35,367 bases of DNA from Romboutsia sp. (GTDB lineage Bacteria > Bacillota > Clostridia > Peptostreptococcales > Peptostreptococcaceae): assembly GCA_017889265.1 (NCBI GenBank), contig JAGHEK010000013.1, positions 1 to 35,367 of the forward strand, given 5' to 3'. This document shows, piece by piece, positions 123 to 15,372 of the stretch (positions are counted from its first letter, which is position 1; each line of letters starts with the position of its first letter). Under the pieces are notes generated by a model. It saw only the letters and a list, made by a program, of their open reading frames with translations, had not been told where the DNA came from and searched no databases. The translations under genes and the position numbers were made by a program.

Positions 123-722
123 AAAAGAATAACATCCAAAGTCTCCTATAGTACCAGCAAATCTTCCTTTGTACTTACCTTTTTTGATGTAACTTCCTAA
201 AGCCTCCGTAGAATCTTCTATAACTTTTAAGTTATACTTATTAGCTACATCCATAAGTTTTTCCATATCAATAATATTTCCAAATATATGAACTATAATT
301 ATAGCTTTTATAACCTTATTAGTTTTTTTGTTAATTAAACGATTATTTTCAAATATACACTCATTTTCACAAAAATCTATTAGTTTATCTAAATCCATAT
401 TCAAAGTGTCATCGCAGTCCATAAAAATAGGTTCTGCTCCAACATACTTTACAGGATTTACTGTGGCTATAAATGTAAGAGTTGGAACTATTACTTCATC
501 ATTATTTGAAACATTACATAACCTTAAAACAAGATGAAGACAAGCCGTTCCACTCTGACAGGCAACAGCTTTCTCTACACCAAGATATTTAGAAATACTA
601 TCTTCAAAACTATTTATATACGAACCACCTGTAGAAACCCATTCTTTTTCTAGTGCATCATTTACATATTTTATTTCATTACCTTTTAAATTGGGTACCG
701 ATAATGGTATAAATTTATCCAT
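114..722 (-). pseudogene. DegT/DnrJ/EryC1/StrS-family sugar aminotransferase, N-terminal 202 aa only (stops just before the PLP-lysine motif)
   Basis: N-terminus IPLSVPNLKGNEIKYVNDALEKEWVSTGGSYINSFE...AVACQSGTACLHL...PTLTFIATVNP is typical of the family. The ORF ends ...GDFGCYSFNL*, where family members continue SFxxxK(PLP-Lys)xxxxGxGG (compare SFHPVKTVTTAEGG in the full-length PseC at 9438..10625). Only 113 nt remain to the window edge and they hold a hairpin plus T-run, not the missing ~170 codons. Confidence 0.65.
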
Positions 723-737
723 AAAATTCTTTCCTTT

Positions 738-1718
738 TTATAAGTTATATATATCCGATTTATATTTATCTATATTCTTTTTTAGAAACTCTATAGTTTC
801 TCTTAATCCTTCTTCTAGCGAATATTTAGGCTCCCAGTTAGTTAATTCTTTTATCTTTTTATTAGAACCAAGAAGTCTATTAACTTCACTATTTTCTGGT
901 CTTAGTCTAATTTCATCACAAACTATCTTTGCATTAGGATTTATTTGTTTTATAAGCTCCTCAGCTAATTCTCCAATAGATATTTCTTGTTGAGTAGCTA
1001 TATTTATCTCTTGTCCTATTGTCTTATCACTTTTTGCTATTTCTATAAATCCTCTAACAGTATCCTTTACATAATTAAAATCTCTGGTTGGTGATAAAGA
1101 ACCTAGCTTTATTTCCTGAGCACCAGATAATAATTGAGTAATAATAGTTGGAATAACTGCTCTAGCAGACTGTCTTGGTCCGTAAGTATTAAAAGGTCTA
1201 ACTATAGTAATTGGCATATTAAAACTTCTATAGAAAGATTCGGCTATTCTATCTGCCCCTATTTTAGTAGCAGAATACGGAGATTGTCCTTGATATGGAT
1301 GTTCTTCATCTATCGGTACATACTTGGCAGTACCATAAACTTCAGATGTAGATGTAACCAAAACTCTTTTAGTATTTAAATCTCTCGCTGCCTGTAAAAT
1401 ATTAAGAGTTCCTTTTATATTCGTATCAACGTATGAATCTGGAGAATGATAGCTAAACGGTATAGCTATAAGCGCTGCTAAATGATAAACTTCATCAATG
1501 CCTTTCATAGCTTCTCTTACTCCATTAGAATCTCTTATATCTCCAGAAAATATTTCTATTTTATCTAATTTTTCTTTAGGTAATGTATCCAACCAACCCC
1601 AAGAATTAAAAGAATTATAATAAACGAATGCTCTTACATCATATCCTTCATTTAATAATTCTTCTACCAAATGGCTTCCTATAAATCCATCTGCTCCTGT
1701 TACTAATACTTTTTTCAT
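738..1718 (-). CDS. Extended-SDR NAD-dependent sugar-nucleotide 4,6-dehydratase/epimerase (LegB-like)
   Basis: 326 aa. Has the Rossmann motif VLVTGADGFIGSH, the catalytic STSEVYG and YSATK (YxxxK) motifs, and YYNSFNSWGWLD, which I associate with the LegB-like subgroup. RBS AAGGTGA lies upstream. Gene order dehydratase then DegT aminotransferase matches legB-legC. Confidence 0.75.
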   Translation of the reverse strand: MKKVLVTGADGFIGSHLVEELLNEGYDVRAFVYYNSFNSWGWLDTLPKEKLDKIEIFSGDIRDSNGVREAMKGIDEVYHLAALIAIPFSYHSPDSYVDTNIKGTLNILQAARDLNTKRVLVTSTSEVYGTAKYVPIDEEHPYQGQSPYSATKIGADRIAESFYRSFNMPITIVRPFNTYGPRQSARAVIPTIITQLLSGAQEIKLGSLSPTRDFNYVKDTVRGFIEIAKSDKTIGQEINIATQQEISIGELAEELIKQINPNAKIVCDEIRLRPENSEVNRLLGSNKKIKELTNWEPKYSLEEGLRETIEFLKKNIDKYKSDIYNL

Positions 1719-1727
1719 AAAATCACC

Positions 1728-2837
1728 TTATTCTTCTTCATAAAATTCCATATGAACATCTCTTTTTACTATATCTTCTAGTAAATCACATATTCTTTCG
1801 TATGCATATTTTTCTTCATCCACATCAAAATACTCATCTATAGTCTCTTTAGGAACAGGGAACTCTATTTCCTTATTAGAATTATTAAATTCACAAAATT
1901 CTTCATACGTTCTAGTAAATTTTCCCGTGTTTAATAAATCATTATGCATATGATCTAATAAATCTATTGGTCTTATTATAGAACAATCTTTTTTCATAAA
2001 ATATATATCAGATATAGATGTACTATACCATATATGTATTTTATCACACACTTTTATCCAACTTCTTACAGTTTCATCTTTTATAATATGAAAATTACTA
2101 TATCTATTTTCTATATCCATTATATTCTCATCAACCGCTTCACTTGGATGTGGTCTATATATAAACTCACATTCATTTTCAACAATGTAATTTATAATCC
2201 ACTCTAATAACACTTTTCTAGTATTTTCTTCTAATTTTATCCTATCTTCAACTTCTATTTTACCATGTCTAACACTATAATACTCTTTTCTAGTACTAGT
2301 TAAATTAACCATACCAAAACTAGATATAAAAAGTATCCATTTTTTATTTTTATTAAGTCCGTATTCTACCGATATTTCTTCTTTAGTTTTATATAACGAC
2401 TCAAATCTATCTAAATCCATATCTATATTTAAACATCCAACTATCGGTGCATTTTCTTTTGAAATACCACCTTTCAAAAGCATATCTTGCATCCTCTTAC
2501 CCCAACATAAATGAATTGCATTTTTATTAATACCATCTGGAGTATGTAATTTTAGTTCATATTCATTGTTGCTAAAAATTTGTTCATACTGAAGATTAAC
2601 TATACGCTTTATCTTGCAATTAAATAATGATTTAAAAGTATCTAATTGCCATTCTTCGTAAAGATATGGAGTTAATATAGCATCTGGTTCAAAATCAAGT
2701 TTTTCTTTAGTTGCGTTATACATTCTAAACGGATCACATATATGTAATTCATGTCCTCTTCTATTCAACTCCGCTTTTAATAAATATGCATTTTGTAATT
2801 CTCTTTCCATTAACTCATAAAATAACACAAATTCCAT
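1728..2837 (-). CDS. Conserved hypothetical 369-aa protein, putative GT-B-like sugar or phospho-sugar transferase with RPHP motif; paralog of 12911..14017
   Basis: Long ORF with RBS AAAGGTAG. Well over half of positions are identical by eye to the 368-aa paralog (shared blocks ERELQNAYLLKAELN, DAILTPYLYE, KRIVNLQYEQI, NAIHLCWGK, NECEFIYRPHP, VRSWIKVCDKIH, EKYAYE). I recognised no other family signature. Confidence 0.5.
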   Translation of the reverse strand: MEFVLFYELMERELQNAYLLKAELNRRGHELHICDPFRMYNATKEKLDFEPDAILTPYLYEEWQLDTFKSLFNCKIKRIVNLQYEQIFSNNEYELKLHTPDGINKNAIHLCWGKRMQDMLLKGGISKENAPIVGCLNIDMDLDRFESLYKTKEEISVEYGLNKNKKWILFISSFGMVNLTSTRKEYYSVRHGKIEVEDRIKLEENTRKVLLEWIINYIVENECEFIYRPHPSEAVDENIMDIENRYSNFHIIKDETVRSWIKVCDKIHIWYSTSISDIYFMKKDCSIIRPIDLLDHMHNDLLNTGKFTRTYEEFCEFNNSNKEIEFPVPKETIDEYFDVDEEKYAYERICDLLEDIVKRDVHMEFYEEE

Positions 2838-2842
2838 ATATA

Positions 2843-4174
2843 CTACCTTTCAAATCTACAAAGTATATTTTCAAATATAATCTTATCACGACTATATATT
2901 TCTATCTTTTTATCAATTTCATAATTCAAATCATCAATTAACTGTTTCAATAAAATTTCTATAGGTTCTAGATAATTATCTGGTAAATTTTTTTTATCTT
3001 TAATATCCTTAATGAGACAATAGATATTGTCACAACTCTTGTACTTTAAAAATTTTTTATGACAAGATATTATTGATATAATTTGACTAATAACTTCAGA
3101 ATTTATCTTTTTTTCTTTTGTTATACTATTTAGTAAAATATCTAAATTTCTAATATTGTTATACTCCCTAGTATAAAACTGCTTCTTATAATTAAATTTC
3201 ATTCTATTATAAACATGCGGAGCATTGCACAAAATATCCATTTCAGTGATAATTTTACTTTCCAGTAAATCTACGCTACAGTTTATATATATATCCTCAA
3301 TATATTTTTTTAATTTATTTAATTTATACAAATCTCTTTTTTCATTTAGTAAGTTTATATATTTATTTATACATATTACGATATATTCTACTAATAAATT
3401 ATATAATTTAACATCTTCTATATTATTTAAAAGATTTTTAATTTCAATTAGTTCATCTGTAGTATAATTATAATTAAATTTAGTATTGTTTTCACTATCT
3501 TTAATTTCATAAGTACTTAATAGACAATAATTTTTATATCTTATGTAATCACAGCAAATAAAACTTTTTAATAGAAATAACTTACTAGAACGATGTATTA
3601 ATTCGTCAAAATAAACATTCTTACTTAAAATAAACATTCTTCTATATATATATATGTTTATATTCTCAATATCAATCTCTTTTATTAGTAATTTTTCTAA
3701 GTATTCCACTCCATTTATTATGTTATTATCTAAATAACGATCTTTACTAATAATTTCATACTTATCTTTTAATACAATATATTCATCATTCGTGTTTCTA
3801 TATTTATTAATGACTTTATAATCAACAGATAGTATTTGTAATTTATTTGACTCACATTCCTGATAATACATTTCCAATGCTTGAGATTCTAAAATATAAT
3901 TGCTATCTAAAAAAATTATATATTTACCTTTTGATAAGTTTATAGCGTCATTTTTACATTTATTTATAGTATGTTCATTTGAAAATAATATTTTTATATT
4001 TATATACTCATCAACAAAATACTTAATTTTGTTCATAAGTAGATCACTATCTATATGATTAGGTATACATAAAAATATTTCTATATCATTTAATGTCTGA
4101 TTCATAATACTATCAATACACTCAAGTAAATACTCGTCTATATTTATAACTTCAACTACAACACTTACATTCAT
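2843..4174 (-). CDS. GT-A (family-2-like) glycosyltransferase-domain protein with degenerate nucleotide-binding and DXD motifs, plus a ~200-aa helical C-terminal region
   Basis: 443 aa. The N-terminus VSVVVEVINIDEYLLECIDSIMNQTLNDIEIFLCIPNH...SKGKYIIFLDSNY follows the GT2 template (hhhhPxYN...LxSLxxQT..hEhhhVDDGS...GxYhxFhDSDD). The P-YN, DDGS and second DXD acid positions are replaced. RBS GGAGGGA. Confidence 0.55.
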   Translation of the reverse strand: MNVSVVVEVINIDEYLLECIDSIMNQTLNDIEIFLCIPNHIDSDLLMNKIKYFVDEYINIKILFSNEHTINKCKNDAINLSKGKYIIFLDSNYILESQALEMYYQECESNKLQILSVDYKVINKYRNTNDEYIVLKDKYEIISKDRYLDNNIINGVEYLEKLLIKEIDIENINIYIYRRMFILSKNVYFDELIHRSSKLFLLKSFICCDYIRYKNYCLLSTYEIKDSENNTKFNYNYTTDELIEIKNLLNNIEDVKLYNLLVEYIVICINKYINLLNEKRDLYKLNKLKKYIEDIYINCSVDLLESKIITEMDILCNAPHVYNRMKFNYKKQFYTREYNNIRNLDILLNSITKEKKINSEVISQIISIISCHKKFLKYKSCDNIYCLIKDIKDKKNLPDNYLEPIEILLKQLIDDLNYEIDKKIEIYSRDKIIFENILCRFER

Positions 4175-4188
4175 AACAGGTATCCCTC

Positions 4189-5634
4189 CTATAAATAATT
4201 TTTAATGTAATTACTGTATACTCTAAAATATGAGTTATAATTATCATCCATATTCATATACATCAAATATGATATATTCCTATTAACCAATGGGGATTCT
4301 TTAAATCTAAATTTTTTATTATTTTCTAAAATAAACAAATATTCTTTATATGCTGAATCATACATACAAGCTTCAAAGTTAAGAACTCCTAATCTGTAAT
4401 CTAAATCTTTATTGGTACTAACATCTGCCAAAGAAAAATTTCCTATGGAAATATTGCATATAAAATCTAACAAATCTTTTTCTTTAATTGAATATAAGTA
4501 AATCACTTCTGCCTTAAATACATCATTACAATAAATACTATTTAAAATAACATCCTTAATATTTTTGTAATCTTTTTGTTTAATCAGTAAAGATAAATAA
4601 ATATTATATAATTCCTCATTTTTATACTTTTCATATAGATCTTTAACTATCATAAATTTTTGTTTATCATTACGTATATATAAACCTAGTAAATAGTTAT
4701 TCTTTTCATACTCATTTTGTAGTGAATCAATATAATTTTTTATATCCCAATTGATATTAGAATTTAAAATACAGTCTAATGTAAATGTCTCATTAATACA
4801 TTTATCTATTAAGTATATATTTTTTCTGTTTTCAACAATTTTCTTATGATTATAAACATCTATGTTATTAGTAACTATAAAATCAGAATCTAAGCAACAT
4901 TCCTTTTCTAAAAATAAGTTAATATTTCTATCTAAAAAATGTTCAGTATAATAATTTACATTACTGTAATAAACAATTTTAGATCTATCTTTAAAAGGTA
5001 TCAAAGAACTTAATATATATAAATCACTATATACTAGTATAACATTACTATAATTTCTTAGTATGTACTCAACAATAACCATAATTTCACTAGAATTTAT
5101 CTCATACACATTAATATTATTTTCTTTATAGGATCTAGCATCATGTTTTAATAGATTATCATTTTTATCTATTCTTATTAAAACATTATTTTTATTTCTA
5201 ACATGTTCAAAAATCAAATCATCTTTATCTATATTAATCATTACAAAAGTATATAATTTTTCATTTAAAATATTTTCTATATCATTTTTTATAGAAACCA
5301 CTTCTTGAATTAAATCATTATCATCACTCAAAGCTATACATCTATCATAAAAATATAAAGCATCTTGTAAATTTCCCAACAGAACATTAAGATAACCCAT
5401 GTTATATAAAACATCAACATTAGAATTATCTATCTCAAAAGCCTTTAAAAAACTATCAACTGCTTCTGATAAATTATTTTCTCTAATAGCTACTATACCT
5501 TTCATAGAAAAATATGAAATATCTTCATTAGATAAAACTCCATATTTTTCAAGATATAATTTAGCATTTTCCAAATCATTTATATTAATTAAGTTTTCTA
5601 TTTCACTTTTTATTATTTCTAAATTATTTTTCAT
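4189..5634 (-). CDS. TPR-repeat protein with central alpha/beta-like region and C-terminal helical repeats; paralog of 15373..16938
   Basis: 481 aa. TPR-like helices in the N-terminal ~120 aa (AVDSFLKAFEIDNSNVDVLYNMGYLNVLLGNLQDALYFYDRCIAL). The central segment (VILVYSD...KIVYYSNVNYY...DFIVTNNIDVYN...NIYLID) alternates hydrophobic strands and helices. RBS GAAGAAGGG. Confidence 0.6.
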   Translation of the reverse strand: MKNNLEIIKSEIENLININDLENAKLYLEKYGVLSNEDISYFSMKGIVAIRENNLSEAVDSFLKAFEIDNSNVDVLYNMGYLNVLLGNLQDALYFYDRCIALSDDNDLIQEVVSIKNDIENILNEKLYTFVMINIDKDDLIFEHVRNKNNVLIRIDKNDNLLKHDARSYKENNINVYEINSSEIMVIVEYILRNYSNVILVYSDLYILSSLIPFKDRSKIVYYSNVNYYTEHFLDRNINLFLEKECCLDSDFIVTNNIDVYNHKKIVENRKNIYLIDKCINETFTLDCILNSNINWDIKNYIDSLQNEYEKNNYLLGLYIRNDKQKFMIVKDLYEKYKNEELYNIYLSLLIKQKDYKNIKDVILNSIYCNDVFKAEVIYLYSIKEKDLLDFICNISIGNFSLADVSTNKDLDYRLGVLNFEACMYDSAYKEYLFILENNKKFRFKESPLVNRNISYLMYMNMDDNYNSYFRVYSNYIKNYL

Positions 5635-5755: not shown

Positions 5756-6796
5756 TTATTCAACCATATCAAACGATAAAGGAGTTCCTTTTTTCAAATC
5801 ATCATTAAACTTTTTACCCAAAACTTCATCATAATACTTAGTATGAAGTCCATATCCTGGTCTTATAGATCTTACATTCTCTTTAGTTATTATATCACCC
5901 TTTTTAACGTCTTTTACTATGAATAAAGATCTAGAAAACTCTCTACTTTTCATTTTCTTTTCATCTAGATCATAACTAACAATACCCATAGCTTTTTCAG
6001 CTTTTCTAACAGAATCAACCATAGCTTTAAACTCTTTTTTATCTAAAGAAAAATCTGCATCAGGTCCACCAATACTTCTGTCCAATATAAAATGTTTTTC
6101 TATAACCTTAGCCCCTAGTGCAACAGCTGTTATAGGAACCTCTATATCCATAGTATGATCAGAAAGCCCAACCGTAACACCAAATCTTTCTTTTAAATCG
6201 ACCATAGTATTTAAATTAGCATATTCTAATTTAGCAGGATACTGAGAAGTACATTTAAGTAAAATAATATTATCATTTCCTGCTTTTTTGCAAGTTTCTA
6301 CTGCTAGTTCTATATCATCTAAAGTAGCTATTCCTGTAGATATTATTATAGGTTTTCCTTTTGATGCAATATATTCTATAAGCGGTATATCGTTTATCTC
6401 AAAAGATGCTACCTTATATGCAGGTACTTCTAAATCTTCTAAAAAGTCAACTGCACTCTTATCAAAAGGACTAGAAAAACATACAAGACCTAAACTTTCT
6501 GCATATTCTTTTAATTCTTTTTGCCATTCCCATGGAGTATATGCTTCCTTATATAATTTATATAAAGTAGTTCCGTCCCAAAGTGTACCTTGGTTTATTT
6601 GAAAATACTCATTATCACAATCTATAGTTATAGTATCTGCTGTGTACGTTTGTAATTTTATTGCATCAGCTCCACATTCTTTAGCTGCTTTTATAGTTTC
6701 TTTCGCTGTGTTTATATCATGTCCATGATTAGCAGATAATTCTGCTATTATAAAACAAGGTGATTTATCATTTATCTTAAAATTTCCTATATTCAT
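5756..6796 (-). CDS. pseI: Pseudaminic acid synthase (NeuB family)
   Basis: 346 aa. NeuB signature CFIIAELSANHGHDINTAKETIKAAKECGADAIKLQTY and a C-terminal SAF-like domain (VKDVKKGDIITKENVRSIRPG). Sits in an operon with pseB, pseC and pseG. Confidence 0.85.
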   Translation of the reverse strand: MNIGNFKINDKSPCFIIAELSANHGHDINTAKETIKAAKECGADAIKLQTYTADTITIDCDNEYFQINQGTLWDGTTLYKLYKEAYTPWEWQKELKEYAESLGLVCFSSPFDKSAVDFLEDLEVPAYKVASFEINDIPLIEYIASKGKPIIISTGIATLDDIELAVETCKKAGNDNIILLKCTSQYPAKLEYANLNTMVDLKERFGVTVGLSDHTMDIEVPITAVALGAKVIEKHFILDRSIGGPDADFSLDKKEFKAMVDSVRKAEKAMGIVSYDLDEKKMKSREFSRSLFIVKDVKKGDIITKENVRSIRPGYGLHTKYYDEVLGKKFNDDLKKGTPLSFDMVE

Positions 6797-6806: not shown

Positions 6807-7817
6807 TTAATAATTTAAAATGCTATCTACTATATTCTTGACACCATCATCATGTATAACATTTTTACTTAAATTATTCATTTTATACCTAGCTTCTTTA
6901 TTATCAATTAAAAAATTTACTTTTTCTAATAATTTATCTTTTCTTAAATCACTAAAATATCCCATATTAATCATAATACCTTTTTTATCAAACTCACAGG
7001 CTATATTTTCTTGATTTTCAGCTTGAACTATCAAAATAGCAGGGACTCCCACTTTACATAACTCATAAGCAGTACTTCCAGATGCAGATATAGCTATATC
7101 ATTATTTTTCATAATTTCAGAAATATTATCAGGGTTATATATTAAGTTTATATTATCATATTTTTTAGATATTTCCTGAATTTCATTGATACATTCAAAA
7201 GACTTACCAATTATCACATTGATATTTATGTTTAATTCTTTTATAGTATCTAGAATAAACGGAGTAAAATTATTTATATCACTTCCACCCATTGTAACAA
7301 GTATATTTTCTACTTTTTCTTTGACTCTAAAATTAAAGTCCTTTCTAAACTCCTCCCTAAGAATACAGTACCGACTACCTAATAATAATTTAGTGTCTTT
7401 ATCGATTAATTTATAATCTAAATTATTCGCATATATATTTCCATTTATTATTATATCACTAGGATAATTATATAAAGAATTATCGTCTATAGAGATAAGT
7501 ATCCTAACATATTGCTTAATTTTAAATAAATAATCATTACTTAGATTATATGAATCTGTTATGACACAATCTATATCATTATCTTTTATTATTTTTTCTA
7601 TTTCCAATATTTCGTCATCTAAATTATTAGAATTTATATTTATAAATTTGATACCTTGATTTATAAATATATCATTTACTTCTTTGCAAAATTTGGATAT
7701 AAAAAAAACTTCTATGTTTCGTTCTAAAAGTTCTTTTGCTATAGCTATGCACCTCATTATATGACCCATACCTATATTATTTCCACCATCAGCTCTTATA
7801 CCTATTGATTTAATCAT
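6807..7817 (-). CDS. pseG: UDP-2,4-diacylamido-2,4,6-trideoxy-beta-L-altropyranose hydrolase (PseG-type, GT-B fold)
   Basis: 336 aa. N-terminal IGIRADGGNNIGMGHIMRCIAIAKEL is the PseG signature (RAD...G.GH..R). Its start overlaps the upstream stop by 8 nt. No GNAT (PseH) domain is fused to it. Confidence 0.75.
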   Translation of the reverse strand: MIKSIGIRADGGNNIGMGHIMRCIAIAKELLERNIEVFFISKFCKEVNDIFINQGIKFININSNNLDDEILEIEKIIKDNDIDCVITDSYNLSNDYLFKIKQYVRILISIDDNSLYNYPSDIIINGNIYANNLDYKLIDKDTKLLLGSRYCILREEFRKDFNFRVKEKVENILVTMGGSDINNFTPFILDTIKELNININVIIGKSFECINEIQEISKKYDNINLIYNPDNISEIMKNNDIAISASGSTAYELCKVGVPAILIVQAENQENIACEFDKKGIMINMGYFSDLRKDKLLEKVNFLIDNKEARYKMNNLSKNVIHDDGVKNIVDSILNY

Positions 7818-8682
7818 TTATATATTCCTCTATAGAATAATCTTCTATTAGTAAAATGCTATCTTTCAATTTTAAATATAAACATTCTTTGTTATTAACT
7901 ACTTTTCCAATTTCTACATCATTATAATTTATAATATTACTATAATCTAAGCTTGCCTTCCATATTATAATTTTTTTATTATCATCAATTAAAAATGCCC
8001 CAGGATATGGTTTTGAAACAGCTCTTATAAGATTATAAATTTCTTTACCTGATTTATTTATGTCTATTAATCCATCTTCTGAAGTCCTTTTTCCAAAATA
8101 ACTTCCTTTGGATAAATCCTGCTTAATACCTTCATAAAACTTATCATTTTGTATTATTTTTATAGCTTTTAAAACTATACTAGGATATATATTTTTTACT
8201 TTTATTAATAAATCTTCTATATAATCATTTTCTTTTATGCATACCTTTTCTTGACATATTATATTACCAGTATCTATACCTTCTTCTATAAAATGAACTG
8301 TAACTCCCGTTTGTTTTTCTCCATTTATAATAGCCCAATTAAGTGGAGCTCTTCCTCTATATTTTGGTAAAATAGAAGCATGGGTATTTATACATCCATA
8401 TTTAGGTATACTAATGATTTCTTTCTTTAATATTTGTTCAAAATTAACAGACACTATTAAATCAATATTAAGTTTTTTTATATCTTGCAAAAATAAAGCA
8501 TTATTAATATTTCTTTCTTTATATAATACCAAATTATATTTATTAGCTATATCATCTACACCTCTATACCAATCATTAGCAGTATCTGTTATAACTACTC
8601 CTACAACTTCAATATTATTTTTTATAAGATTTTCTAGTGTTATAGCTCCTAATTCATGCCCTCCCATAAATAATATTTTCAT
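7810..8682 (-). CDS. Fmt/ArnA-like N-formyltransferase (probable sugar N-formyltransferase)
   Basis: Motif CINTHASILPKYRGRAPLNWAIINGEKQTGVTVHFIEEGIDTGNII carries the N-x-H...D catalytic triad and the SLLP-type loop of formyltransferases, followed by an Fmt_C-like tail. I chose the ATG at 8682 (RBS GAAGGTG 6 nt upstream). The track's 8691 start is a GTG inside that RBS. Confidence 0.8.
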   Translation of the reverse strand: MKILFMGGHELGAITLENLIKNNIEVVGVVITDTANDWYRGVDDIANKYNLVLYKERNINNALFLQDIKKLNIDLIVSVNFEQILKKEIISIPKYGCINTHASILPKYRGRAPLNWAIINGEKQTGVTVHFIEEGIDTGNIICQEKVCIKENDYIEDLLIKVKNIYPSIVLKAIKIIQNDKFYEGIKQDLSKGSYFGKRTSEDGLIDINKSGKEIYNLIRAVSKPYPGAFLIDDNKKIIIWKASLDYSNIINYNDVEIGKVVNNKECLYLKLKDSILLIEDYSIEEYIND

Positions 8683-8683
8683 A

Positions 8684-9430
8684 TTATTCACCTTCAGTCT
8701 TTAGCGCTTTTTGTTTTATATGGCTATTTATATTTTCTAGTTGTTTATTTGTTATCATAACTTTTAATATATCATCTAAATAAAAATCTTTACTGTCTAT
8801 ATATAAAAAATCGTATATTCTTTTTATAAGTTCAAAGTCTTCCTTGGTATCAAGTGTTAATCTATATTTTGAATAATCAATATCATTTTTATAATAATAT
8901 ATATCCTTTTCATTTTCATAAATATATGGTGTTACATGCTCTTTTTGATAATCTTTGTTTGCATTTTTGTATGCATTCTCTAAAGCATTAAAATCAAAAA
9001 TTTCAGTATCTAAACCTCTTGGATAAGTTCTATTATGTATATCTCCTGCATTAGTAACTAATCTATAATTACTTTTTAAGTAAAAACCTAACATTTCATC
9101 TATAACTAAATGGTCTATTAAAGGACAATCAGATGTTATTCTAATAACTATATCCGCTTTATTTTCCTTTGCACACAAATAATATCTACTTAAAACATCA
9201 CTTTCACTACCTCTAAAATATTTACATCCTATTTTTTTACATTCATCCACTATCTTATCATCTTGTTCTAAATCAGTAGTCGCTACTATAACTTCATCTA
9301 TATATTTAGATTTTTTAACTCTATCAACGACATGATTAAGAACAGTTTTACCTTTTAAATCTAATAAAACTTTCCCTGGTAACCTTGTTGAACCAACTCT
9401 TGCTTGTATTATAGCTACTATTTTTTTCAT
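8684..9430 (-). CDS. SpsF/FlmC-type cytidylyltransferase, probable CMP-pseudaminic acid synthetase (PseF role)
   Basis: 248 aa. N-terminus IVAIIQARVGSTRLPGKVLLDLKGKTVL is the CTP_transf_3/SpsF signature. It is the only nucleotidyltransferase in the pse operon. Confidence 0.6.
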   Translation of the reverse strand: MKKIVAIIQARVGSTRLPGKVLLDLKGKTVLNHVVDRVKKSKYIDEVIVATTDLEQDDKIVDECKKIGCKYFRGSESDVLSRYYLCAKENKADIVIRITSDCPLIDHLVIDEMLGFYLKSNYRLVTNAGDIHNRTYPRGLDTEIFDFNALENAYKNANKDYQKEHVTPYIYENEKDIYYYKNDIDYSKYRLTLDTKEDFELIKRIYDFLYIDSKDFYLDDILKVMITNKQLENINSHIKQKALKTEGE

Positions 9431-9437: not shown

Positions 9438-10625
9438 CTACTTTCTATAATAACCTAAAACTTTATTAACAGCATTTATCACATCATAAAAATCATCATT
9501 GCTCATTCCAGGATATAAAGGAAGAGTAATCATAGAATTATATAACTCTTCAGCATTTGGACAAAGACCTTTTTTATAGTCAAGGTTTTTATAATAAGGA
9601 TGCAAATAAACAGGTAGATAATGAACATTTACACCTATATTTTCTGCAAATAATGCCTCAAATATTTCTTTTCTACCAACCTTAAATTTATCTAAATCAA
9701 GTTTCATTATATATAAGTGCCTGCTTGTATCCGAAAATTCTCCTTCCTTTTGAATAATTACTCCATCTATTTTAGATAAATATTCATTATACATTCCAAC
9801 AAGTTCTTTTCTTCTTTTTATAAATCCATCTAACTTATCCATTTGAGTAATACCAAGAGCACATTGCAAATCAGTTATTCTATAGTTATACCCTAAATCA
9901 ATCTGTTCATAATACCAAGGTCCTTCATCTTTATTTTCCATAAACTCAGTATTTCTAGTTATTCCATGAGTTCTAAACAAAATCAATTTTTCATATAAAT
10001 CTTTTCTATTAGTAGTTATAATTCCACCCTCTGCAGTTGTAACAGTTTTCACAGGATGAAAACTAAACTCAGTCATATCAGAAATACTTCCAATAAACTT
10101 TCCTTTATATTTAGTGCCTAATGCATGAGCGGCATCTTCTATAACTATTAGATTATACTTTTTTGCCAATTCCAAAATAGGATCTAAATCAACAGATTGA
10201 CCAGTAAAATGAACTGGTATTATAGCTTTAGTTTTATGAGTAATCTTTTTTTCTATTTCATTTACATCTATATTATAAGTTTCTTTATCTATATCGACAA
10301 AAACAGGCTTAGCACCACAGTAGAGTATACAATTAGCAGATGCTGCAAAAGTCATAGGTGTAGTGATAACCTCATCATCCTCTTTTATCCCTGCCGAAAG
10401 ACAAGCTATATGAAGTGCAGCAGTACCATTGGATACTGCTACAGCATACTTTGAACCAACATAATCAGCAACCTTTTTCTCAAACTCCGAAACTGTAGGT
10501 CCTGTAGTTAAATAATCTCCATTTAATATATTTACTACTGACTTTATGTCATCCTCATCTATAACTTGCTTACCATATGGTAAAAATTTATTTCTTACAG
10601 GAGTTCCTCCATTTATAGCTAACAA
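9438..10625 (-). CDS. pseC: UDP-4-amino-4,6-dideoxy-N-acetyl-beta-L-altrosamine transaminase
   Basis: 395 aa, full-length DegT-family protein. Has LPYGKQVIDEDDIKSVVNILNGDYLTTGP...AVAVSNGTAALHIA and the PLP-lysine motif FSFHPVKTVTTAEGG. Lies directly downstream of pseB. Confidence 0.8.
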   Translation of the reverse strand: MLAINGGTPVRNKFLPYGKQVIDEDDIKSVVNILNGDYLTTGPTVSEFEKKVADYVGSKYAVAVSNGTAALHIACLSAGIKEDDEVITTPMTFAASANCILYCGAKPVFVDIDKETYNIDVNEIEKKITHKTKAIIPVHFTGQSVDLDPILELAKKYNLIVIEDAAHALGTKYKGKFIGSISDMTEFSFHPVKTVTTAEGGIITTNRKDLYEKLILFRTHGITRNTEFMENKDEGPWYYEQIDLGYNYRITDLQCALGITQMDKLDGFIKRRKELVGMYNEYLSKIDGVIIQKEGEFSDTSRHLYIMKLDLDKFKVGRKEIFEALFAENIGVNVHYLPVYLHPYYKNLDYKKGLCPNAEELYNSMITLPLYPGMSNDDFYDVINAVNKVLGYYRK

Positions 10626-10639: not shown

Positions 10640-11659
10640 TTATTTTTCTAGCTTATATATACCTAGTTTTTCCATTTCATTTCTTAAATCTTCAATACTC
10701 AACCACTCAGCATTATTTCCAGAATTATATTCAAACCCATTTTCTATAGGTTTACCGCCTTCTGTAAAATAACTCTCCTTATTCCACCAATCAAAATGTG
10801 GATATATTATATAGTGTTTTTCGTATTCATAAGTAGTTCTAGAATCATCTTTAGTAACCATCACTTCGTGAAGTTTTTCACCTTCTCTTATACCTACATG
10901 CTTTAATTTGCATCCAGGTAACATAGCTTCTGCTAAATCAGTTATCTTAAAAGAAGGAATTTTTGAAATATAAGTTTCTCCACCTTTCGACTCTTCCAAT
11001 GCCTTTAAAACTAAATCTATACCTTCTTCAAGGCTTATCCAAAATCTAGTCATATTAAAATCAGTTATAGGAAGTTCATCTACTCCTTTTTCTATTAAAT
11101 CCTTAAAAAACGGTATTACAGAACCTCTACTACCTGCTACATTTCCGTATCTAACTACCGAAAAAATAGTTCCTTTATCTGCTGCATAAGCATTTGCCGA
11201 AATAAAAAGTTTATCCGATACTAACTTAGTTCCTCCATATAAATTAATTGGATTAACTGCTTTATCAGTAGATAATGCTACAACCTTTTTGACTTTTCTA
11301 TCTATTGCTGCATCTACTACATTTTGCGCTCCGTTTATATTAGTCATTATAGCTTCAAAAGGATTATATTCACAGGCAGGTACTTGCTTCATCGCAGCAG
11401 CATGAACTACATAATCAACTCCATCAAATGCTCTATATAGTCTATTTTTATCTCTTACATCACCTATGAAAAATCTAAGCTTAGATAATTTTTCTGGCAT
11501 TTCTATCGATATTTCTTTTTTGAATAAATCTTGCTTAAATTCATCTCTTGAAAAAATTATTACTTTTTTAGGAGAATATTTTTTTAAAATCATTTTAGTA
11601 AATGATTTACCAAAGCTTCCTGTTCCTCCTGTTATAAGTATTGTTTTATTATTTAACAT
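10640..11659 (-). CDS. pseB: UDP-N-acetylglucosamine 4,6-dehydratase (inverting)
   Basis: 339 aa. Motifs KTILITGGTGSFGKSF, IIFSRDEFKQ, LRFFIGDVRD, HAAAMKQVPACEYNPFEAIMTNINGAQNV, VVALSTDKAVNPINLYGGTKLVSDKLF. This is the classic PseB/FlaA1 pattern. Confidence 0.9.
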   Translation of the reverse strand: MLNNKTILITGGTGSFGKSFTKMILKKYSPKKVIIFSRDEFKQDLFKKEISIEMPEKLSKLRFFIGDVRDKNRLYRAFDGVDYVVHAAAMKQVPACEYNPFEAIMTNINGAQNVVDAAIDRKVKKVVALSTDKAVNPINLYGGTKLVSDKLFISANAYAADKGTIFSVVRYGNVAGSRGSVIPFFKDLIEKGVDELPITDFNMTRFWISLEEGIDLVLKALEESKGGETYISKIPSFKITDLAEAMLPGCKLKHVGIREGEKLHEVMVTKDDSRTTYEYEKHYIIYPHFDWWNKESYFTEGGKPIENGFEYNSGNNAEWLSIEDLRNEMEKLGIYKLEK

Positions 11660-11677: not shown

Positions 11678-12895
11678 TTATTTTCCTATCATTAATATCA
11701 TATGATTTATTGTATTTTGATTATTGTCTTTCAAATATTCATATATTCTATTGTTAAGTGTACTATCGTGCAATAAAGCTTTGCTATAATTTTGTATTAA
11801 AGAAACTAGTCTTTCTATATTCATATCATTTTTATAATAAGCACACATACCTATAATATTTAATTTTACTATAACAAAATTAACTATCAAGTTCATATAA
11901 GATAATATTATATTACCTTTATTGTTATATGGAAATAAATTGTTAAATATATAATTTACTAAATAATTTTCATATATATACTCTTTGTCTTTTATAAATT
12001 CTTCGTATGTTCCATTAATAGTATCTATAAATTTATTTCTAGAATTTTCTATGTTATCTATATACAATTCTAAACCTTCAATCATATGTTGTATATTTTC
12101 TCTATATCTTTCATTAAACATAGATCTATTTGGTATAATATTATTCGATAATAAAAATAACAAAGAAAATTGTGCTTCTATTGTATTATCTATACTTATC
12201 TTTTCTAATATATTGTTATAGTATCCTCTGTTTATATTAATATTATATTTATCTATTATACTCAAAATATTACATTCCTCAATAGTATCTAATTCATTAA
12301 AAAATAAACCTAGTATTATTAATCTTTCCTCTATCACAAATTTTCTATTTTGAAGTAATGTTATAGAAAATTCACGAAGTTCATAAAAATATTTTTCTAA
12401 AATATTTTTACTATTTATAGAATGTATATTTTCAGATATCATTATTTCAGATAATTCTTCTTCAACTAACTCAAATTCCATCATATTTTCATTCAATAAA
12501 ACTAATCTTGCAGCTTCTATACAAGATAAAGTTAAAGCTCCTTGAATAACACCATCTACACAATTATATGCTCTTGGATAACTTCTACAAGTATAACACA
12601 TACTATCTTCCCCTAATATACTATATATGCTACATAAATTATTTTCATCTAAAAAAACACATTTATTGTCGTATAATTTAAACCTTGCAAAATTATAATC
12701 ATCAGTTGCTTTCCTGTTCCTAGAAGTGTGTTGTTGTAATTTTTTCCTCATATTTATATTTTTGCATTTAATATACTTTTTATAAGTTTTTTTATCTATA
12801 GTAATATCCCATCCTTTACAACATGTGTCTTCACAATTACTTCCTATACATTTAAATTTATCAAAATACTGTGGTTTAAGTATTTTATATCTCAT
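11678..12895 (-). CDS. fliB: Flagellin lysine-N-methylase (FliB family)
   Basis: 405 aa. N-terminus FDKFKCIGSNCEDTCCKGWDITIDKKTYKKY matches the Salmonella FliB cysteine motif (C-x-GS-x-C-x-D-x-CCKGW-x-IT-x-DK-x-T-x-KKY). Further Cys blocks follow (NKCVFLDENNLCSIY, CYTCRSYPR). Size matches FliB (~400 aa). Confidence 0.8.
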   Translation of the reverse strand: MRYKILKPQYFDKFKCIGSNCEDTCCKGWDITIDKKTYKKYIKCKNINMRKKLQQHTSRNRKATDDYNFARFKLYDNKCVFLDENNLCSIYSILGEDSMCYTCRSYPRAYNCVDGVIQGALTLSCIEAARLVLLNENMMEFELVEEELSEIMISENIHSINSKNILEKYFYELREFSITLLQNRKFVIEERLIILGLFFNELDTIEECNILSIIDKYNININRGYYNNILEKISIDNTIEAQFSLLFLLSNNIIPNRSMFNERYRENIQHMIEGLELYIDNIENSRNKFIDTINGTYEEFIKDKEYIYENYLVNYIFNNLFPYNNKGNIILSYMNLIVNFVIVKLNIIGMCAYYKNDMNIERLVSLIQNYSKALLHDSTLNNRIYEYLKDNNQNTINHMILMIGK

Positions 12896-12910: not shown

Positions 12911-14017
12911 TTAATCGTCATAAAAATTCATCTTTGTATCTTTGATAACTATATCTTCAAGCACATCACAAATCAATTCATATGCATATTTTTCTTTATC
13001 TATATAAAAATTTTCTAGTATTAAATTTTCATCAATAGGAAATTTGGTTATATTATCATTATCATTAAATTGCTTAAATCCTTCATAATCAGTTATAAAA
13101 TTTCCATCATTAGTTAAACCGTTATGCATCCATTCAGCTATAGGTATTGGTCTAAGTATAGAGCAATTTTTTTTCATAAAATATATATCAACTATCGAAG
13201 TACTTATCCACGTATGTATTTTATCACACACTTTTATCCAAGATCTAACCGAATCATTTTTTATTATATGGAAATTTTTATTATTTTCCTGAATAGAATA
13301 TATTTTTTTATCTAATGCTTCTGCTGGATGAGGTCTATATATAAACTCGCATTCATTATCTGATATATATTTTTCGATCCACTCCAATATTATATTTCTA
13401 CTAGTTGTATCAACTTCTATTCTTTCATTTATTCTATCATTTCCAAAACGAATAGCATTATATTTTTTTCTCATTTCACTTAAATTAACCATTGCAAAAC
13501 TCGAAAGAAATATTATCCATTTTTTGTTGGTATCCAAATCATACTCCATCGCAATCTCATCTCTTTTTTTAAAAACACTATTAAATCTTTCTCTATCCAT
13601 GTCAACATTCATAGATCCAGTTATTATACAATTTTCTTTAGGCACCCCATTTTTCACCATATTATCATACCACTTTTTACCCCAACACAAATGAATAGCA
13701 TTTCTATTTAATCCTTTAGGTATATGAAAGCCTATTTCATTATGTCCTTTAGTCAATATTTGTTCATACTGTAAATTTACAATTCTCTTTATTTTAGTAT
13801 CAAATATTTCTTTGAAAATCATTAACTGACCATCCTCATATAGATATGGTGTTAAAATAGCATCTGGAGTAAATTTTAATTTTTCTTTAGTTATATTTAT
13901 CATATAAAATGGATCACAAATGTATAAATTATGTCCTCTTTTATTAAGTTCTGCTTTTAGCAGATATGCATTTTGTAATTCTCTTTCTGTACACTCATAA
14001 AATAATACAAAGTCCAT
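12911..14017 (-). CDS. Conserved hypothetical 368-aa protein, putative GT-B-like transferase with EDG and RPHP motifs; paralog of 1728..2837
   Basis: RBS AAGGAG. E61-D62-G63 (YLYEDGQL) and H230-P231 (FIYRPHPAEA). Tail motif VRSWIKVCDKIHTWISTSIVDIYFMKK resembles the C-terminal half of CMP-sugar or CDP-alditol dependent GT-B enzymes. Confidence 0.5.
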   Translation of the reverse strand: MDFVLFYECTERELQNAYLLKAELNKRGHNLYICDPFYMINITKEKLKFTPDAILTPYLYEDGQLMIFKEIFDTKIKRIVNLQYEQILTKGHNEIGFHIPKGLNRNAIHLCWGKKWYDNMVKNGVPKENCIITGSMNVDMDRERFNSVFKKRDEIAMEYDLDTNKKWIIFLSSFAMVNLSEMRKKYNAIRFGNDRINERIEVDTTSRNIILEWIEKYISDNECEFIYRPHPAEALDKKIYSIQENNKNFHIIKNDSVRSWIKVCDKIHTWISTSIVDIYFMKKNCSILRPIPIAEWMHNGLTNDGNFITDYEGFKQFNDNDNITKFPIDENLILENFYIDKEKYAYELICDVLEDIVIKDTKMNFYDD

Positions 14018-14027
14018 ATAAACTCCT

Positions 14028-15353
14028 TTATAAATTTAGTAATATATTTTTAAATTTATCCTCCAAAAAATTATAATAATTTAACTTTTCATTTATAGAA
14101 AATTCTATATTTTGAATAAGAATATATAGGTTATCCTTAATAGCATCAATATCACCAATAATTACATCTGAACATTCATTAAGATATTTTTTCAGATTGT
14201 CATAACTTTTATATTTTTCAAAATATTTATTGCTAGACAGAAGCTCTTCTAAGACTCTTCGGTCATCTTTTGATAATATTTTATTTTTCTCTATATCATT
14301 AATTATATTAGTTACAGTGTATATATCGTTATAGTGATTTTTATACGAGTTTAATAAATTATTCTTGGTTCTTTCATATAGTATAGGAGAATCTATCAAT
14401 ATTTCGCTTTTTATTTCAATATCTATAAGTTCTTGTTTTTGAGACATATTTTTTATATCATCTATATATTTACTTGCTTTAATCATATCGTCTAAATCAT
14501 AGTTTAATTTCAATTGTTCAACAATACCTTCTATTATCTTAAACATATCATCAAGAATATTATGACATATTCTCAAATCTATAGTTATGCAATCAAAGTA
14601 TATGTTTTTTAATTTATTTAATAATTCAAATCTATATTTTATAGCATTATATCTTGTATAATAATTATCCTTGTATATATTTTTATATACTTTTATATAT
14701 TTTATACTGTTTGATAAATACTGTATTTTATTTACTTTGATTAATGTTTCTAAGATAAATGTATAACAAAAATTAGGAAATTCTTCATTAAAGTATATAT
14801 TTTCTTTTTTTAAAAAACTTTTACTATATACATACATATTTATATCATATATTTCTAAATCTTTCGCTTTGAGCTTAGAGTAAAATTCAGTTCCTTTATA
14901 TAACCCCTCATTTATAAATCTATTTTTATTGGTAAAATCTATTTGCTTTACAACTTCTGTTGAATACTCGTGCATTGTTGATACTTTTTCTGGATTGTAT
15001 GAACAATCAAAGGTTAATATTTCTGATTTAAATATTTCTATATTATTATATAACTCTTCTAATGCATTCTGCTTAAATAAAGACATTCCATCACAAAAAT
15101 ATATATATTTACCAGTAGATAAATCTATCGCCTTATTCTTTAATTTATTTATATTATCATCTTCTGATGTCAATAAAGTAATATTCTTATATTTTTCAAT
15201 ATAATTTTGTAATAAATTAATATTATTGATATTACTTCTTGGAATGCAAATTATTATTTCATATGAATCTAGTCTTTGATTTAAAATGCTTTCGATACAA
15301 TCAAAAATAGTGTCATCTATTCTTACAATAGTTAGTACAACTGTAAATTTCAT
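14028..15353 (-). CDS. GT-A (family-2-like) domain protein with degenerate motifs plus helical C-terminal region; paralog of 2843..4174
   Basis: I chose the ATG at 15353 (MKFTVVL...) because AAAGGAGA lies 4 nt upstream. The track's 15386 start would overlap the upstream gene. Sequence FTVVLTIVRIDDTIFDCIESILNQRLDSYEIIICIPRSN...STGKYIYFCDGMS shows CIP in place of DDGS and DGM in place of DXD. Confidence 0.55.
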   Translation of the reverse strand: MKFTVVLTIVRIDDTIFDCIESILNQRLDSYEIIICIPRSNINNINLLQNYIEKYKNITLLTSEDDNINKLKNKAIDLSTGKYIYFCDGMSLFKQNALEELYNNIEIFKSEILTFDCSYNPEKVSTMHEYSTEVVKQIDFTNKNRFINEGLYKGTEFYSKLKAKDLEIYDINMYVYSKSFLKKENIYFNEEFPNFCYTFILETLIKVNKIQYLSNSIKYIKVYKNIYKDNYYTRYNAIKYRFELLNKLKNIYFDCITIDLRICHNILDDMFKIIEGIVEQLKLNYDLDDMIKASKYIDDIKNMSQKQELIDIEIKSEILIDSPILYERTKNNLLNSYKNHYNDIYTVTNIINDIEKNKILSKDDRRVLEELLSSNKYFEKYKSYDNLKKYLNECSDVIIGDIDAIKDNLYILIQNIEFSINEKLNYYNFLEDKFKNILLNL

Positions 15354-15372
15354 ATAATCTCCTTTAGTAGTT

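What the first reader, a model, noticed from the sequence alone, without database searches (positions are those of the whole stretch)
7810..8682. Formyltransferase in the pse operon and no PseH acetyltransferase: prediction of a 7-N-formyl pseudaminic acid
The canonical pathway is PseB, PseC, PseH (a GNAT that N-acetylates the 4-amino group), PseG, PseI and PseF. This operon has clear PseB, PseC, PseG and PseI and a cytidylyltransferase. It has no GNAT, either stand-alone or fused to PseG. An Fmt/ArnA-type formyltransferase with an intact N-x-H...D triad sits between the cytidylyltransferase and pseG, and its end overlaps the pseG start.

C4 of the hexose becomes C7 of the nonulosonate. N-formylation of the PseC product would therefore give Pse5Ac7Fo. 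From memory, that sugar is known chemically from some Pseudomonas O-antigens, but I am not aware of it as a described flagellin glycan.
Basis: partly seen in the sequence, partly recalled or inferred. Interest (0 to 1): 0.6.

Follow-up and report, generated by a model that had tools for sequence, protein, structure and literature searches.

The report
Formyltransferase replacing PseH in flagellar operon
A flagellin-linked pseudaminic acid operon carries a sugar formyltransferase where the usual acetyltransferase would be, so it probably makes a 7-N-formyl pseudaminic acid; this chemistry is already known from the enzyme PseJ, but the enzyme here belongs to a different, mis-annotated branch of the family.

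Summary
On the minus strand, fliC is followed by pseB, pseC, a cytidylyltransferase, a two-domain formyltransferase (7810-8682), pseG and pseI. The genes are tightly coupled and there is no GNAT.

- **No PseH found.** The assembled genome (88.7% complete) has no PseH. Its best match is RimI.
- **Not the housekeeping enzyme.** The true fmt lies elsewhere, in a priA-def-fmt context.
- **A distinct clade.** The formyltransferase falls in a well-supported clade separate from Fmt and ArnA. All nine members I examined sit beside pseI or pseG, including Paraclostridium bifermentans, Paeniclostridium sordellii and Halanaerobium. They are annotated "methionyl-tRNA formyltransferase".
- **Complete genomes agree.** Two complete Clostridia genomes with a pseI-adjacent ArnA/Fmt-type formyltransferase (only one in this clade) lack PseH genome-wide. 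A same-family relative instead has a GNAT fused to the cytidylyltransferase.

The likeliest function is N-formylation of the PseC product, giving CMP-Pse5Ac7Fo for flagellin.

This is not a new idea. PseJ (Reimer 2018) already defines a formyl branch of the Pse pathway. The enzyme here is only distantly related to PseJ, so I class it as a new member of a known kind.

Separately, the island continues on another contig and holds two further sugar formyltransferases.

No biochemistry supports the product assignment.

The parts
7810..8682 (-). Two-domain sugar N-formyltransferase (290 aa). It is the predicted UDP-4-amino-4,6-dideoxy-beta-L-AltNAc N-formyltransferase and functional replacement of PseH.
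   Evidence: Pfam Formyl_trans_N and Formyl_trans_C. Best solved homologue is the ArnA formyltransferase domain, E 2e-40; PseJ scores only 8e-14. Asn99, His101 and Asp137 are invariant. It sits in a clade separate from Fmt and ArnA.
10640..11659 (-). pseB, the inverting UDP-GlcNAc 4,6-dehydratase
   Evidence: TIGR03589, 541 bits against a cut-off of 408
9438..10625 (-). pseC, the aminotransferase that makes the 4-amino substrate
   Evidence: TIGR03588, 506 bits against a cut-off of 424. The second-best model is ArnB.
8684..9430 (-). Cytidylyltransferase, presumed CMP-Pse synthetase (a PseF analogue, not a PseF equivalog)
   Evidence: Pfam CTP_transf_3, 141 bits. The PseF model scores only 30 bits against 206. 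Homologues are present in nearly all Clostridia pse clusters examined.
6807..7817 (-). pseG, the UDP-sugar hydrolase. Its start overlaps the formyltransferase stop.
   Evidence: TIGR03590, 237 bits against a cut-off of 154. ATGATTAA overlap.
5756..6796 (-). pseI, pseudaminic acid synthase
   Evidence: TIGR03586, 528 bits against a cut-off of 340
17048..18229 (-). Flagellin, the presumed glycosylation target at the head of the gene string
   Evidence: Pfam Flagellin_N and Flagellin_C
11678..12895 (-). fliB-type flagellin lysine N-methylase, immediately upstream of pseB
   Evidence: NF038110, 295 bits against a cut-off of 85
12911..16953 (-). Module A: TPR protein, GT2-like protein and a TIGR04396/BFO_1060-type protein. 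These are candidate nonulosonic acid transferases.
   Evidence: No Maf is found in the assembled genome.
1728..5634 (-). Module B, a diverged paralogous copy of module A downstream of pseI
   Evidence: tblastn identities to module A are 59%, 31% and 45%.
114..1718 (-). legB plus the 5' half of a legC-like aminotransferase; this is the start of a second, legionaminic-type pathway that continues on contig C52
   Evidence: TIGR04180, 530 bits. The 3' half of legC lies at the C52 end.
1..116 (.). End of an IS200/IS605-family element that interrupts legC and breaks the assembly
   Evidence: The same 116 bases recur on contigs C104 and C105. Y1 transposase and OrfB HTH genes are on C104.

Best explanation
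The 290-aa protein is a dedicated sugar N-formyltransferase that fills the PseH step of the pseudaminic acid pathway.

The proposed route is as follows. PseB and PseC convert UDP-GlcNAc to UDP-4-amino-4,6-dideoxy-beta-L-AltNAc. The formyltransferase moves a formyl group from N10-formyl-tetrahydrofolate onto the 4-amino group, using the Asn99, His101 and Asp137 residues. PseG removes UDP. PseI condenses the sugar with PEP, so C4 of the hexose becomes C7 and the product is Pse5Ac7Fo. The adjacent cytidylyltransferase then makes CMP-Pse5Ac7Fo, which is transferred to flagellin.

Shown here: the gene identities, the operon structure, the intact catalytic residues, the lack of any PseH-like gene in the assembled genome, the separate housekeeping fmt, and the conserved embedding of this formyltransferase clade in pse clusters. 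Inferred: the acceptor substrate, the final sugar, and flagellin as the target.
For: 1. **Operon structure.** pseB, pseC, the cytidylyltransferase, the formyltransferase, pseG and pseI lie in one tightly packed string behind fliC. The formyltransferase stop overlaps the pseG start, and a ribosome-binding site precedes the ATG at 8682.

2. **No PseH in the assembly.**
   - The best TIGR03585 match scores 28 bits against a cut-off of 93, and it is RimI inside tsaE-tsaB-rimI-tsaD.
   - tblastn with four bona fide PseH proteins gives E > 0.3.
   - Only two Acetyltransf_1 GNATs are found genome-wide: RimI and an Eis-like protein. There is no Acetyltransf_3 and no NeuD/PglD type beyond a 458-aa GlmU-sized frame (identity inferred).

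3. **Not Met-tRNA formyltransferase.**
   - A 312-aa fmt sits in priA-def-fmt on contig C121.
   - The pse enzyme scores below the fmt equivalog cut-off (192 against 201.5).
   - It lacks a 7-residue insertion present in the genome's own Fmt.
   - It lies in a clade with 99% SH-aLRT support, separate from the Fmt clade.

4. **Clade context.** All nine clade members inspected lie next to pseI or pseG in pse clusters. These are this window, P0003, P. bifermentans, P. sordellii, Halanaerobium, P0086, G179 (=P0098), P0109 and P0113.

5. **Complete genomes.** G179 and G042 are both 100% complete and have an ArnA/Fmt-type formyltransferase beside pseI. Only G179's enzyme belongs to this clade. Neither has a PseH above cut-off anywhere in the genome.

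6. **Natural swap.** The same-family genome G043 has pseB-pseC followed by a cytidylyltransferase with an N-terminal PseH-like GNAT domain, and no formyltransferase.

7. **Closest solved relative.** This is the ArnA formyltransferase domain (E 2e-40). From established knowledge, it formylates UDP-4-amino-4-deoxy-L-arabinose, another UDP-linked 4-amino L-sugar. PseC's second-best model is ArnB.

8. **Precedent.** PseJ is described as filling in the Pse5Ac7Fo branch. PseF converts Pse5Ac7Fo to its CMP form as efficiently as it converts Pse5Ac7Ac (PMC11040635).
Against: - There is no biochemical or mass-spectrometric evidence for this organism or any clade member.
- The genome is a 128-contig assembly, 88.7% complete, so a PseH could lie in the missing part.
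- The enzyme is only distantly related to the one characterised PseH-replacing formyltransferase, PseJ (E 8e-14, core only).
- Formyltransferase and GNAT are not strictly exclusive. One clade locus (L124) has a moderately PseH-like GNAT just upstream of pseB. A different, short formyltransferase type co-occurs with GNATs in G162 and G125.
- It is not known whether this PseG, PseI and cytidylyltransferase accept the formyl intermediate.
Confidence: 0.7

Rival explanations
1. The formyltransferase is accessory. The 4-amino group would be acetylated by an unrecognised or unassembled acetyltransferase. The formyltransferase would modify a different amine, for example on the legionaminic-type sugar, on another glycan sugar, or at N5 after de-N-acetylation.
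For: - The genome is 88.7% complete.
- A FemAB-like GNAT (Acetyltransf_6) lies in the same island on contig C52.
- One clade locus has a PseH-like GNAT next to pseB.
- Short formyltransferases co-occur with GNATs in two other Clostridia pse clusters.
Against: - The other two sugar pathways in the island each have their own formyltransferase, so this one is not needed there.
- The formyltransferase is translationally coupled to pseG, and the clade always sits inside the pse core (9 of 9 loci).
- Complete genomes G179 and G042 have no PseH.
- The FemAB-like protein shows no similarity to PseH.
Confidence: 0.15
2. Formylation is transient, as in the Arn pathway. It would pull the PseC transamination forward, and the formyl group would later be removed or exchanged. 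The mature sugar would then carry a free amine or another acyl group at N7.
For: - The nearest characterised homologue is ArnA. From established knowledge, its formyl group is later removed by ArnD.
- Nonulosonates with one free amine and one formamide are reported at the CMP-sugar level in Kuenenia (bioRxiv 10.64898/2026.04.20.719630).
Against: - No deformylase or deacetylase gene lies in the island. The four Polysacc_deac_1 genes are on unrelated contigs.
- There is no ATP-grasp or other acyl ligase in the pse operon.
- PseJ is reported to lead to stable Pse5Ac7Fo.
Confidence: 0.1
3. It is a redundant or degenerate paralogue of methionyl-tRNA formyltransferase, as public annotation says, with no role in sugar synthesis.
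For: - PGAP names the orthologues "methionyl-tRNA formyltransferase".
- It is 36% identical to the genome's own Fmt.
Against: - It scores below the fmt equivalog cut-off.
- It lacks a 7-residue insertion present in the genome's own Fmt.
- It falls in a separate, well-supported clade.
- A canonical def-fmt pair exists elsewhere.
- Its position inside pse operons is conserved across families.
Confidence: 0.03

Closest known systems
PseJ of Anoxybacillus kamchatkensis (PDB 6CI2, 6CI4; Reimer et al. 2018, ACS Chem Biol 13:3161, cited in PMC11040635)
   Same: Both are formyltransferases encoded in a pseudaminic acid cluster and credited with the Pse5Ac7Fo branch. They share the Formyl_trans_N catalytic core, and the same reaction is predicted.
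   Different: They are not orthologues. PseJ matches only residues 74-199 at E 8e-14, whereas ArnA matches at 2e-40. The crystallised PseJ chains are 192-217 residues and the match covers only the catalytic core. The enzyme here has 290 residues and a Formyl_trans_C domain. No activity has been shown for it.
N-terminal formyltransferase domain of E. coli ArnA
   Same: It is the best solved homologue (E 2e-40, 30% identity). The two share the two-subdomain architecture, the Asn/His/Asp residues and the HxSLLPKYRGRAPLNW motif. The acceptor is also a UDP-linked 4-amino L-sugar made by a PseC-like aminotransferase, ArnB.
   Different: There is no fused decarboxylase domain, and the ArnA model scores 219 bits against a cut-off of 777. 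It belongs to a different clade, a different pathway (nonulosonate rather than lipid A Ara4N), and has no ArnC or ArnD partners.
PseH (GNAT N-acetyltransferase of the canonical Pse pathway, TIGR03585)
   Same: It occupies the same pathway step and the same operon slot between pseC and pseG. In relatives that slot holds a GNAT, either free-standing or fused to the cytidylyltransferase.
   Different: The fold and cofactor are unrelated (acetyl-CoA against N10-formyl-THF). The product would be 14.016 Da lighter.
Methionyl-tRNA formyltransferase (Fmt, TIGR00460)
   Same: Same two Pfam domains, 36% identity, and this is the name given in public annotation.
   Different: It scores below the equivalog cut-off and lacks a 7-residue insertion present in the genome's own Fmt. 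It lies in a separate clade, and the real fmt sits next to def on another contig.

Membership tests
Formyl_trans_N / Formyl_trans_C superfamily (N10-formyl-THF-dependent transferases) | Both Pfam domains score above their gathering thresholds | tested here: met
   PF00551 113 bits against 26; PF02911 47 bits against 21
Formyl_trans_N / Formyl_trans_C superfamily (N10-formyl-THF-dependent transferases) | Catalytic Asn, His and Asp, plus the SLLPxxRG folate loop | tested here: met
   N99, H101 and D137 are invariant, and the HASILPKYRGRAPLNW motif is present
PseJ-type function (formyltransferase replacing PseH in Pse synthesis) | Encoded inside a pse cluster that lacks PseH | tested here: met
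   The same holds in 8 of 9 clade loci.
PseJ-type function (formyltransferase replacing PseH in Pse synthesis) | Sequence orthology to PseJ | tested here: not met
   PseJ chains match at E 8e-14 over the core only, and many other formyltransferases rank higher
PseJ-type function (formyltransferase replacing PseH in Pse synthesis) | Formylates UDP-4-amino-4,6-dideoxy-beta-L-AltNAc | not testable with these tools
   Needs an enzyme assay
Methionyl-tRNA formyltransferase (TIGR00460) | Score above the equivalog cut-off | tested here: not met
   192.4 bits against a cut-off of 201.5
Methionyl-tRNA formyltransferase (TIGR00460) | Housekeeping context (def-fmt) and the Fmt-specific loop insertion | tested here: not met
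   The real fmt lies in priA-def-fmt on C121. The 7-residue insertion seen in the genome's own Fmt is absent from the pse enzyme. The two fall in separate clades.
ArnA (NF005998) | Bifunctional formyltransferase plus UDP-GlcA decarboxylase, scoring above the cut-off | tested here: not met
   219 bits against 777. Only model positions 1-263 are matched, and there is no dehydrogenase domain.
Canonical pseudaminic acid pathway (PseB, C, H, G, I, F) | PseB, PseC, PseG and PseI equivalogs | tested here: met
   All four score above their cut-offs
Canonical pseudaminic acid pathway (PseB, C, H, G, I, F) | PseH N-acetyltransferase | tested here: not met
   The best genome-wide match is 28 bits against 93, and it is RimI. 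The genome is 88.7% complete.
Canonical pseudaminic acid pathway (PseB, C, H, G, I, F) | PseF equivalog | tested here: not met
   30 bits against 206. A CTP_transf_3 enzyme of another subfamily occupies the slot.

The most novel reading that the evidence does not exclude
A previously unrecognised ArnA/Fmt-like clade, annotated everywhere as methionyl-tRNA formyltransferase, would be a second, independently recruited type of PseH-replacing enzyme. It is present in Peptostreptococcaceae-like bacteria, including P. sordellii and P. bifermentans, and in Halanaerobium. It would make flagellins of these bacteria the first known to carry Pse5Ac7Fo. In this reduced genome it would be part of a flagellar glycan programme that uses formyl instead of acetyl in three separate amino-sugar pathways.
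Probability: 0.5. Interest if true: 0.45.

Novelty: new member of a known kind. Interest (0 to 1): 0.35.

Why it matters
If correct, three things follow.

- **Annotation.** It corrects a systematic mis-annotation. A whole clade named "methionyl-tRNA formyltransferase" would be sugar enzymes.
- **Enzymology.** It adds a second enzyme type for the formyl branch of pseudaminic acid synthesis.
- **A testable prediction.** It predicts a concrete mass signature on flagellin: a 302.11 Da residue instead of 316.13 Da. This can be tested in cultured Paraclostridium and Paeniclostridium species.

N-acyl variation on nonulosonic acids changes antigenicity and recognition by phages and immune receptors, so knowing which acyl group is present has practical value. 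It does not open a new kind of biology, because both the chemistry and the logic of swapping the N7 acyl enzyme are already established.

Tried and rejected
- **Distant relatives from genome contigs.** The 80 loci at 31-43% identity turned out to be mostly housekeeping fmt genes with no sugar genes nearby. I did not use them for context statistics.
- **Whole-genome PseH search in P. bifermentans and P. sordellii.** I tried this through their loci, but those records are not held. Absence of PseH is therefore shown only within about 10 kb of their clusters.
- **The PseJ paper.** It could not be read. What I say about it rests on its citation in PMC11040635 and on PDB titles.
- **Literature on formylated flagellin glycans.** Searches for a formylated pseudaminic acid on flagellin, or for flagellin glycans of P. 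sordellii, found nothing relevant.
- **Short formyltransferases in G162 and G125.** I checked whether they are PseJ-like. They are not; they match PDB 1ZGH instead.
- **Rfam scan.** The scan of the window found no RNA family. The hairpin at the left end belongs to an IS200/IS605 element.
- **Not done.** I did not fold the protein, because sequence similarity to ArnA (E 2e-40) already fixes the fold. I did not name the organism. The family-level guess (Peptostreptococcaceae-like) is only an inference from the nearest homologues.
Full report
**What is there**

The window is AT-rich (about 18-33% G+C in 1-kb windows) and almost entirely coded on the minus strand. Reading that strand, the order is:

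- flagellin (17048-18229);
- a three-gene module of a TPR protein, a GT2-like protein and a TIGR04396-family protein (12911-16953);
- a FliB-type flagellin lysine methylase (11678-12895);
- pseB, pseC, a CTP_transf_3 cytidylyltransferase, the formyltransferase, pseG and pseI;
- a second copy of the three-gene module;
- legB and the 5' half of a legC-like gene.

PseB, PseC, PseG and PseI all exceed their NCBIfam equivalog cut-offs. The cytidylyltransferase does not reach the PseF cut-off. However, homologues of it occur in nearly every Clostridia pse cluster I looked at.

The formyltransferase has both Formyl_trans_N and Formyl_trans_C domains. A GAAGGTG ribosome-binding site precedes the ATG at 8682. 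The stop codon overlaps the pseG start as ATGATTAA.

**It is not the housekeeping formyltransferase**

- The genome has a 312-aa fmt on contig C121, directly after priA and def.
- The pse-operon enzyme scores just below the fmt equivalog cut-off (192.4 against 201.5).
- It lacks a 7-residue insertion present in the genome's own Fmt, and it has a shorter C-terminus.
- In a maximum-likelihood tree of 58 formyltransferases, it falls in a 20-member clade (SH-aLRT 99). That clade is separate from the Fmt clade (SH-aLRT 100, which contains the genome's own fmt) and from E. coli ArnA.
- Asn99, His101 and Asp137 and the HxSxLPKYRGRAPLNW loop are invariant.

**Is PseH really missing?**

- TIGR03585 finds only a 28-bit match (cut-off 93) in the assembled genome. 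That gene is RimI, inside tsaE-tsaB-rimI-tsaD.
- tblastn with four genuine PseH proteins taken from related genomes finds nothing better than E 0.3.
- Genome-wide there are just two Acetyltransf_1 matches, RimI and an Eis-like protein. There is no Acetyltransf_3 match, and no NeuD/PglD-type enzyme apart from weak hits in a 458-aa, GlmU-sized frame (identity inferred).
- The limitation is that this is a 128-contig assembly estimated at 88.7% complete. The statement is "not found", not "absent".

**Comparative evidence: close relatives**

The nearest relatives (59-69% identity) are in Paraclostridium bifermentans, P. benzoelyticum, P. dentum, P. ghonii, Paeniclostridium sordellii and unnamed metagenomic contigs. 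Halanaerobium saccharolyticum is at 54%. All that carry a name are called "methionyl-tRNA formyltransferase".

In every clade member whose neighbourhood I read, the gene sits directly beside pseI or pseG inside a pseB/pseC/cytidylyltransferase/pseG/pseI cluster. The nine members are this window, P0003, P0009, P0062, P0071, P0086, P0098 (=G179), P0109 and P0113. Where flanks are long enough, the cluster usually lies next to flagellar genes or a Maf gene.

**Comparative evidence: sampled Clostridia genomes**

I took 399 sampled genomes of the same class. Thirty, including this one, have a PseI above cut-off. Among the other 29:

- 14 have a PseH-like GNAT in the cluster;
- two of those GNATs are fused to the cytidylyltransferase, including the same-family genome G043, where the fused domain's best NCBIfam hit is PseH;
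- two genomes, G179 and G042, both 100% complete, have an ArnA/Fmt-type formyltransferase beside pseI and no PseH above cut-off anywhere in the genome; only G179's enzyme falls in the clade;
- the rest carry ATP-grasp/HAD pairs or a hexapeptide acyltransferase in that region, or sit on contigs too short to judge.

The N7-acyl step thus behaves as an exchangeable slot, and the formyltransferase is one of its occupants. These genomes are related to each other, so the counts are descriptive and not a statistical test.

**Exceptions**

- One clade locus (L124) has a moderately PseH-like GNAT just upstream of pseB, at the junction with a second nonulosonate cluster.
- A different, short formyltransferase type co-occurs with GNATs in G162 and G125. 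It matches PDB 1ZGH (E 4e-100), which is deposited as a Met-tRNA formyltransferase.

Formyltransferase and GNAT are therefore not strictly mutually exclusive.

**Mechanism**

The best solved homologue is the ArnA formyltransferase domain (E 2e-40). From established knowledge, ArnA formylates UDP-4-amino-4-deoxy-L-arabinose, the product of ArnB. PseC's second-best family model is ArnB. The PseC/formyltransferase pair therefore mirrors ArnB/ArnA acting on a closely similar UDP-linked 4-amino L-sugar.

The most likely reaction is N-formylation of UDP-4-amino-4,6-dideoxy-beta-L-AltNAc. PseG hydrolysis, PseI condensation and CMP activation would follow, giving CMP-Pse5Ac7Fo. I put this at about 0.7.

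The rivals are:

- an accessory role, with an unseen acetyltransferase doing the PseH step (0.15);
- Arn-like transient formylation (0.1). No deformylase is linked to the island; the four polysaccharide deacetylase genes are on other contigs;
- a redundant Fmt paralogue (0.03).

**Comparison with what is known**

The concept is published. PMC11040635 states that the formyltransferase PseJ (Reimer et al. 2018) "filled in the map" of Pse5Ac7Fo biosynthesis. It lists Pse5Ac7Fo among naturally occurring Pse derivatives. It also shows that PseF converts Pse5Ac7Fo with a kcat/Km equal to that for Pse5Ac7Ac.

A comparative study of Geobacillus flagellin glycosylation islands had already noted Pse clusters without PseH and with formyltransferase genes (PMC5109656). 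Formyltransferases in legionaminic-type clusters are reported for Halorubrum and Kuenenia.

What differs here is the enzyme. PseJ matches it only over the catalytic core (E 8e-14), and the match shows no counterpart to the Formyl_trans_C domain. This is a separate clade of the same superfamily doing what is probably the same job. I found no report of Pse5Ac7Fo on a flagellin, but the searchable library is incomplete. I therefore rate it a new member of a known kind, of moderate interest.

**Surroundings worth recording**

- **legC is split, not deleted.** Its 3' half lies at the end of contig C52. The two halves are separated by an IS200/IS605-family element whose ends recur on contigs C104, C105 and C114.
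- **The island continues on C52.** It encodes a ptmE-like nucleotidyltransferase, a FemAB-like GNAT, a second formyltransferase, legI (NeuB equivalog, 518 bits), a WbuX-type amidotransferase, legG, two GFO oxidoreductases, a cytidylyltransferase and a GT2. These are followed by FdtA, a third formyltransferase and an aminotransferase. The third formyltransferase strongly resembles the sugar 3-N-formyltransferase WlaRD (E 5e-79).
- **Formyl appears to replace acetyl.** The island has three sugar formyltransferases, and the assembly has almost no sugar N-acetyltransferases. This organism may systematically use formyl where others use acetyl.
- **No Maf.** No Maf protein was found in the assembly.

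Noticed in passing
window 1-722 and contig C52 17248-17922 (L120): The legC-like aminotransferase is split, not deleted. The 5' half ends at window 114 and the 3' half lies at the C52 end. An IS200/IS605-family element (Y1 transposase plus OrfB) sits between them, and its ends recur on contigs C104, C105 and C114. The legionaminic branch may therefore be inactivated, or heterogeneous in the population.
   Followed up: partly
contig C52 (L120 1-14423): This contig continues the flagellar glycosylation island. It holds a leg-type cluster: ptmE-like, FemAB-like GNAT, a divergent formyltransferase, legI, WbuX amidotransferase, legG, two GFO oxidoreductases and a cytidylyltransferase. It also holds an FdtA, WlaRD-like 3-N-formyltransferase (E 5e-79) and aminotransferase set. 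That makes three sugar formyltransferases in one island.
   Followed up: partly
whole assembled genome (G000): Only two Acetyltransf_1 GNATs were found: RimI on C116 and an Eis-like protein on C122. There is no Acetyltransf_3 and no NeuD/PglD-type acetyltransferase beyond weak hits in a 458-aa, GlmU-sized frame (identity inferred). The assembly is very poor in acetyltransferases, which fits formyl replacing acetyl in its amino sugars.
   Followed up: yes
whole assembled genome (G000); window 1728-5634 and 12911-16953: No Maf (PF01973) scores above cut-off anywhere in the assembly, whereas the Paraclostridium and Halanaerobium clusters carry one. The duplicated TPR/GT2-like/TIGR04396 modules are the only transferase candidates here.
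   Followed up: partly
L103 10520-11200 (G162) and L106 11189-11884 (G125): A different, short (about 226 aa) formyltransferase sits between pseI and pseG in two other Clostridia, next to a GNAT. It matches PDB 1ZGH (E 4e-100), which is deposited as "methionyl-tRNA formyltransferase" and is probably another mis-named sugar enzyme.
   Followed up: partly
L091, L097, L105, L116 (pse clusters of other Clostridia): The slot between pseC and pseG or pseI is variable. It can hold PylC-like ATP-grasp ligases with HAD or metallophosphatase/SDR partners, or a hexapeptide acyltransferase. This implies several other N7-acyl variants of pseudaminic acid in Clostridia.
   Followed up: partly
L110 10752-11939 (G043) and L095 11567-12751 (G135): These are fusion proteins with an N-terminal PseH-like GNAT domain and a C-terminal CTP_transf_3 cytidylyltransferase, about 395 aa long. 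G043 is in the same family as this genome.
   Followed up: partly
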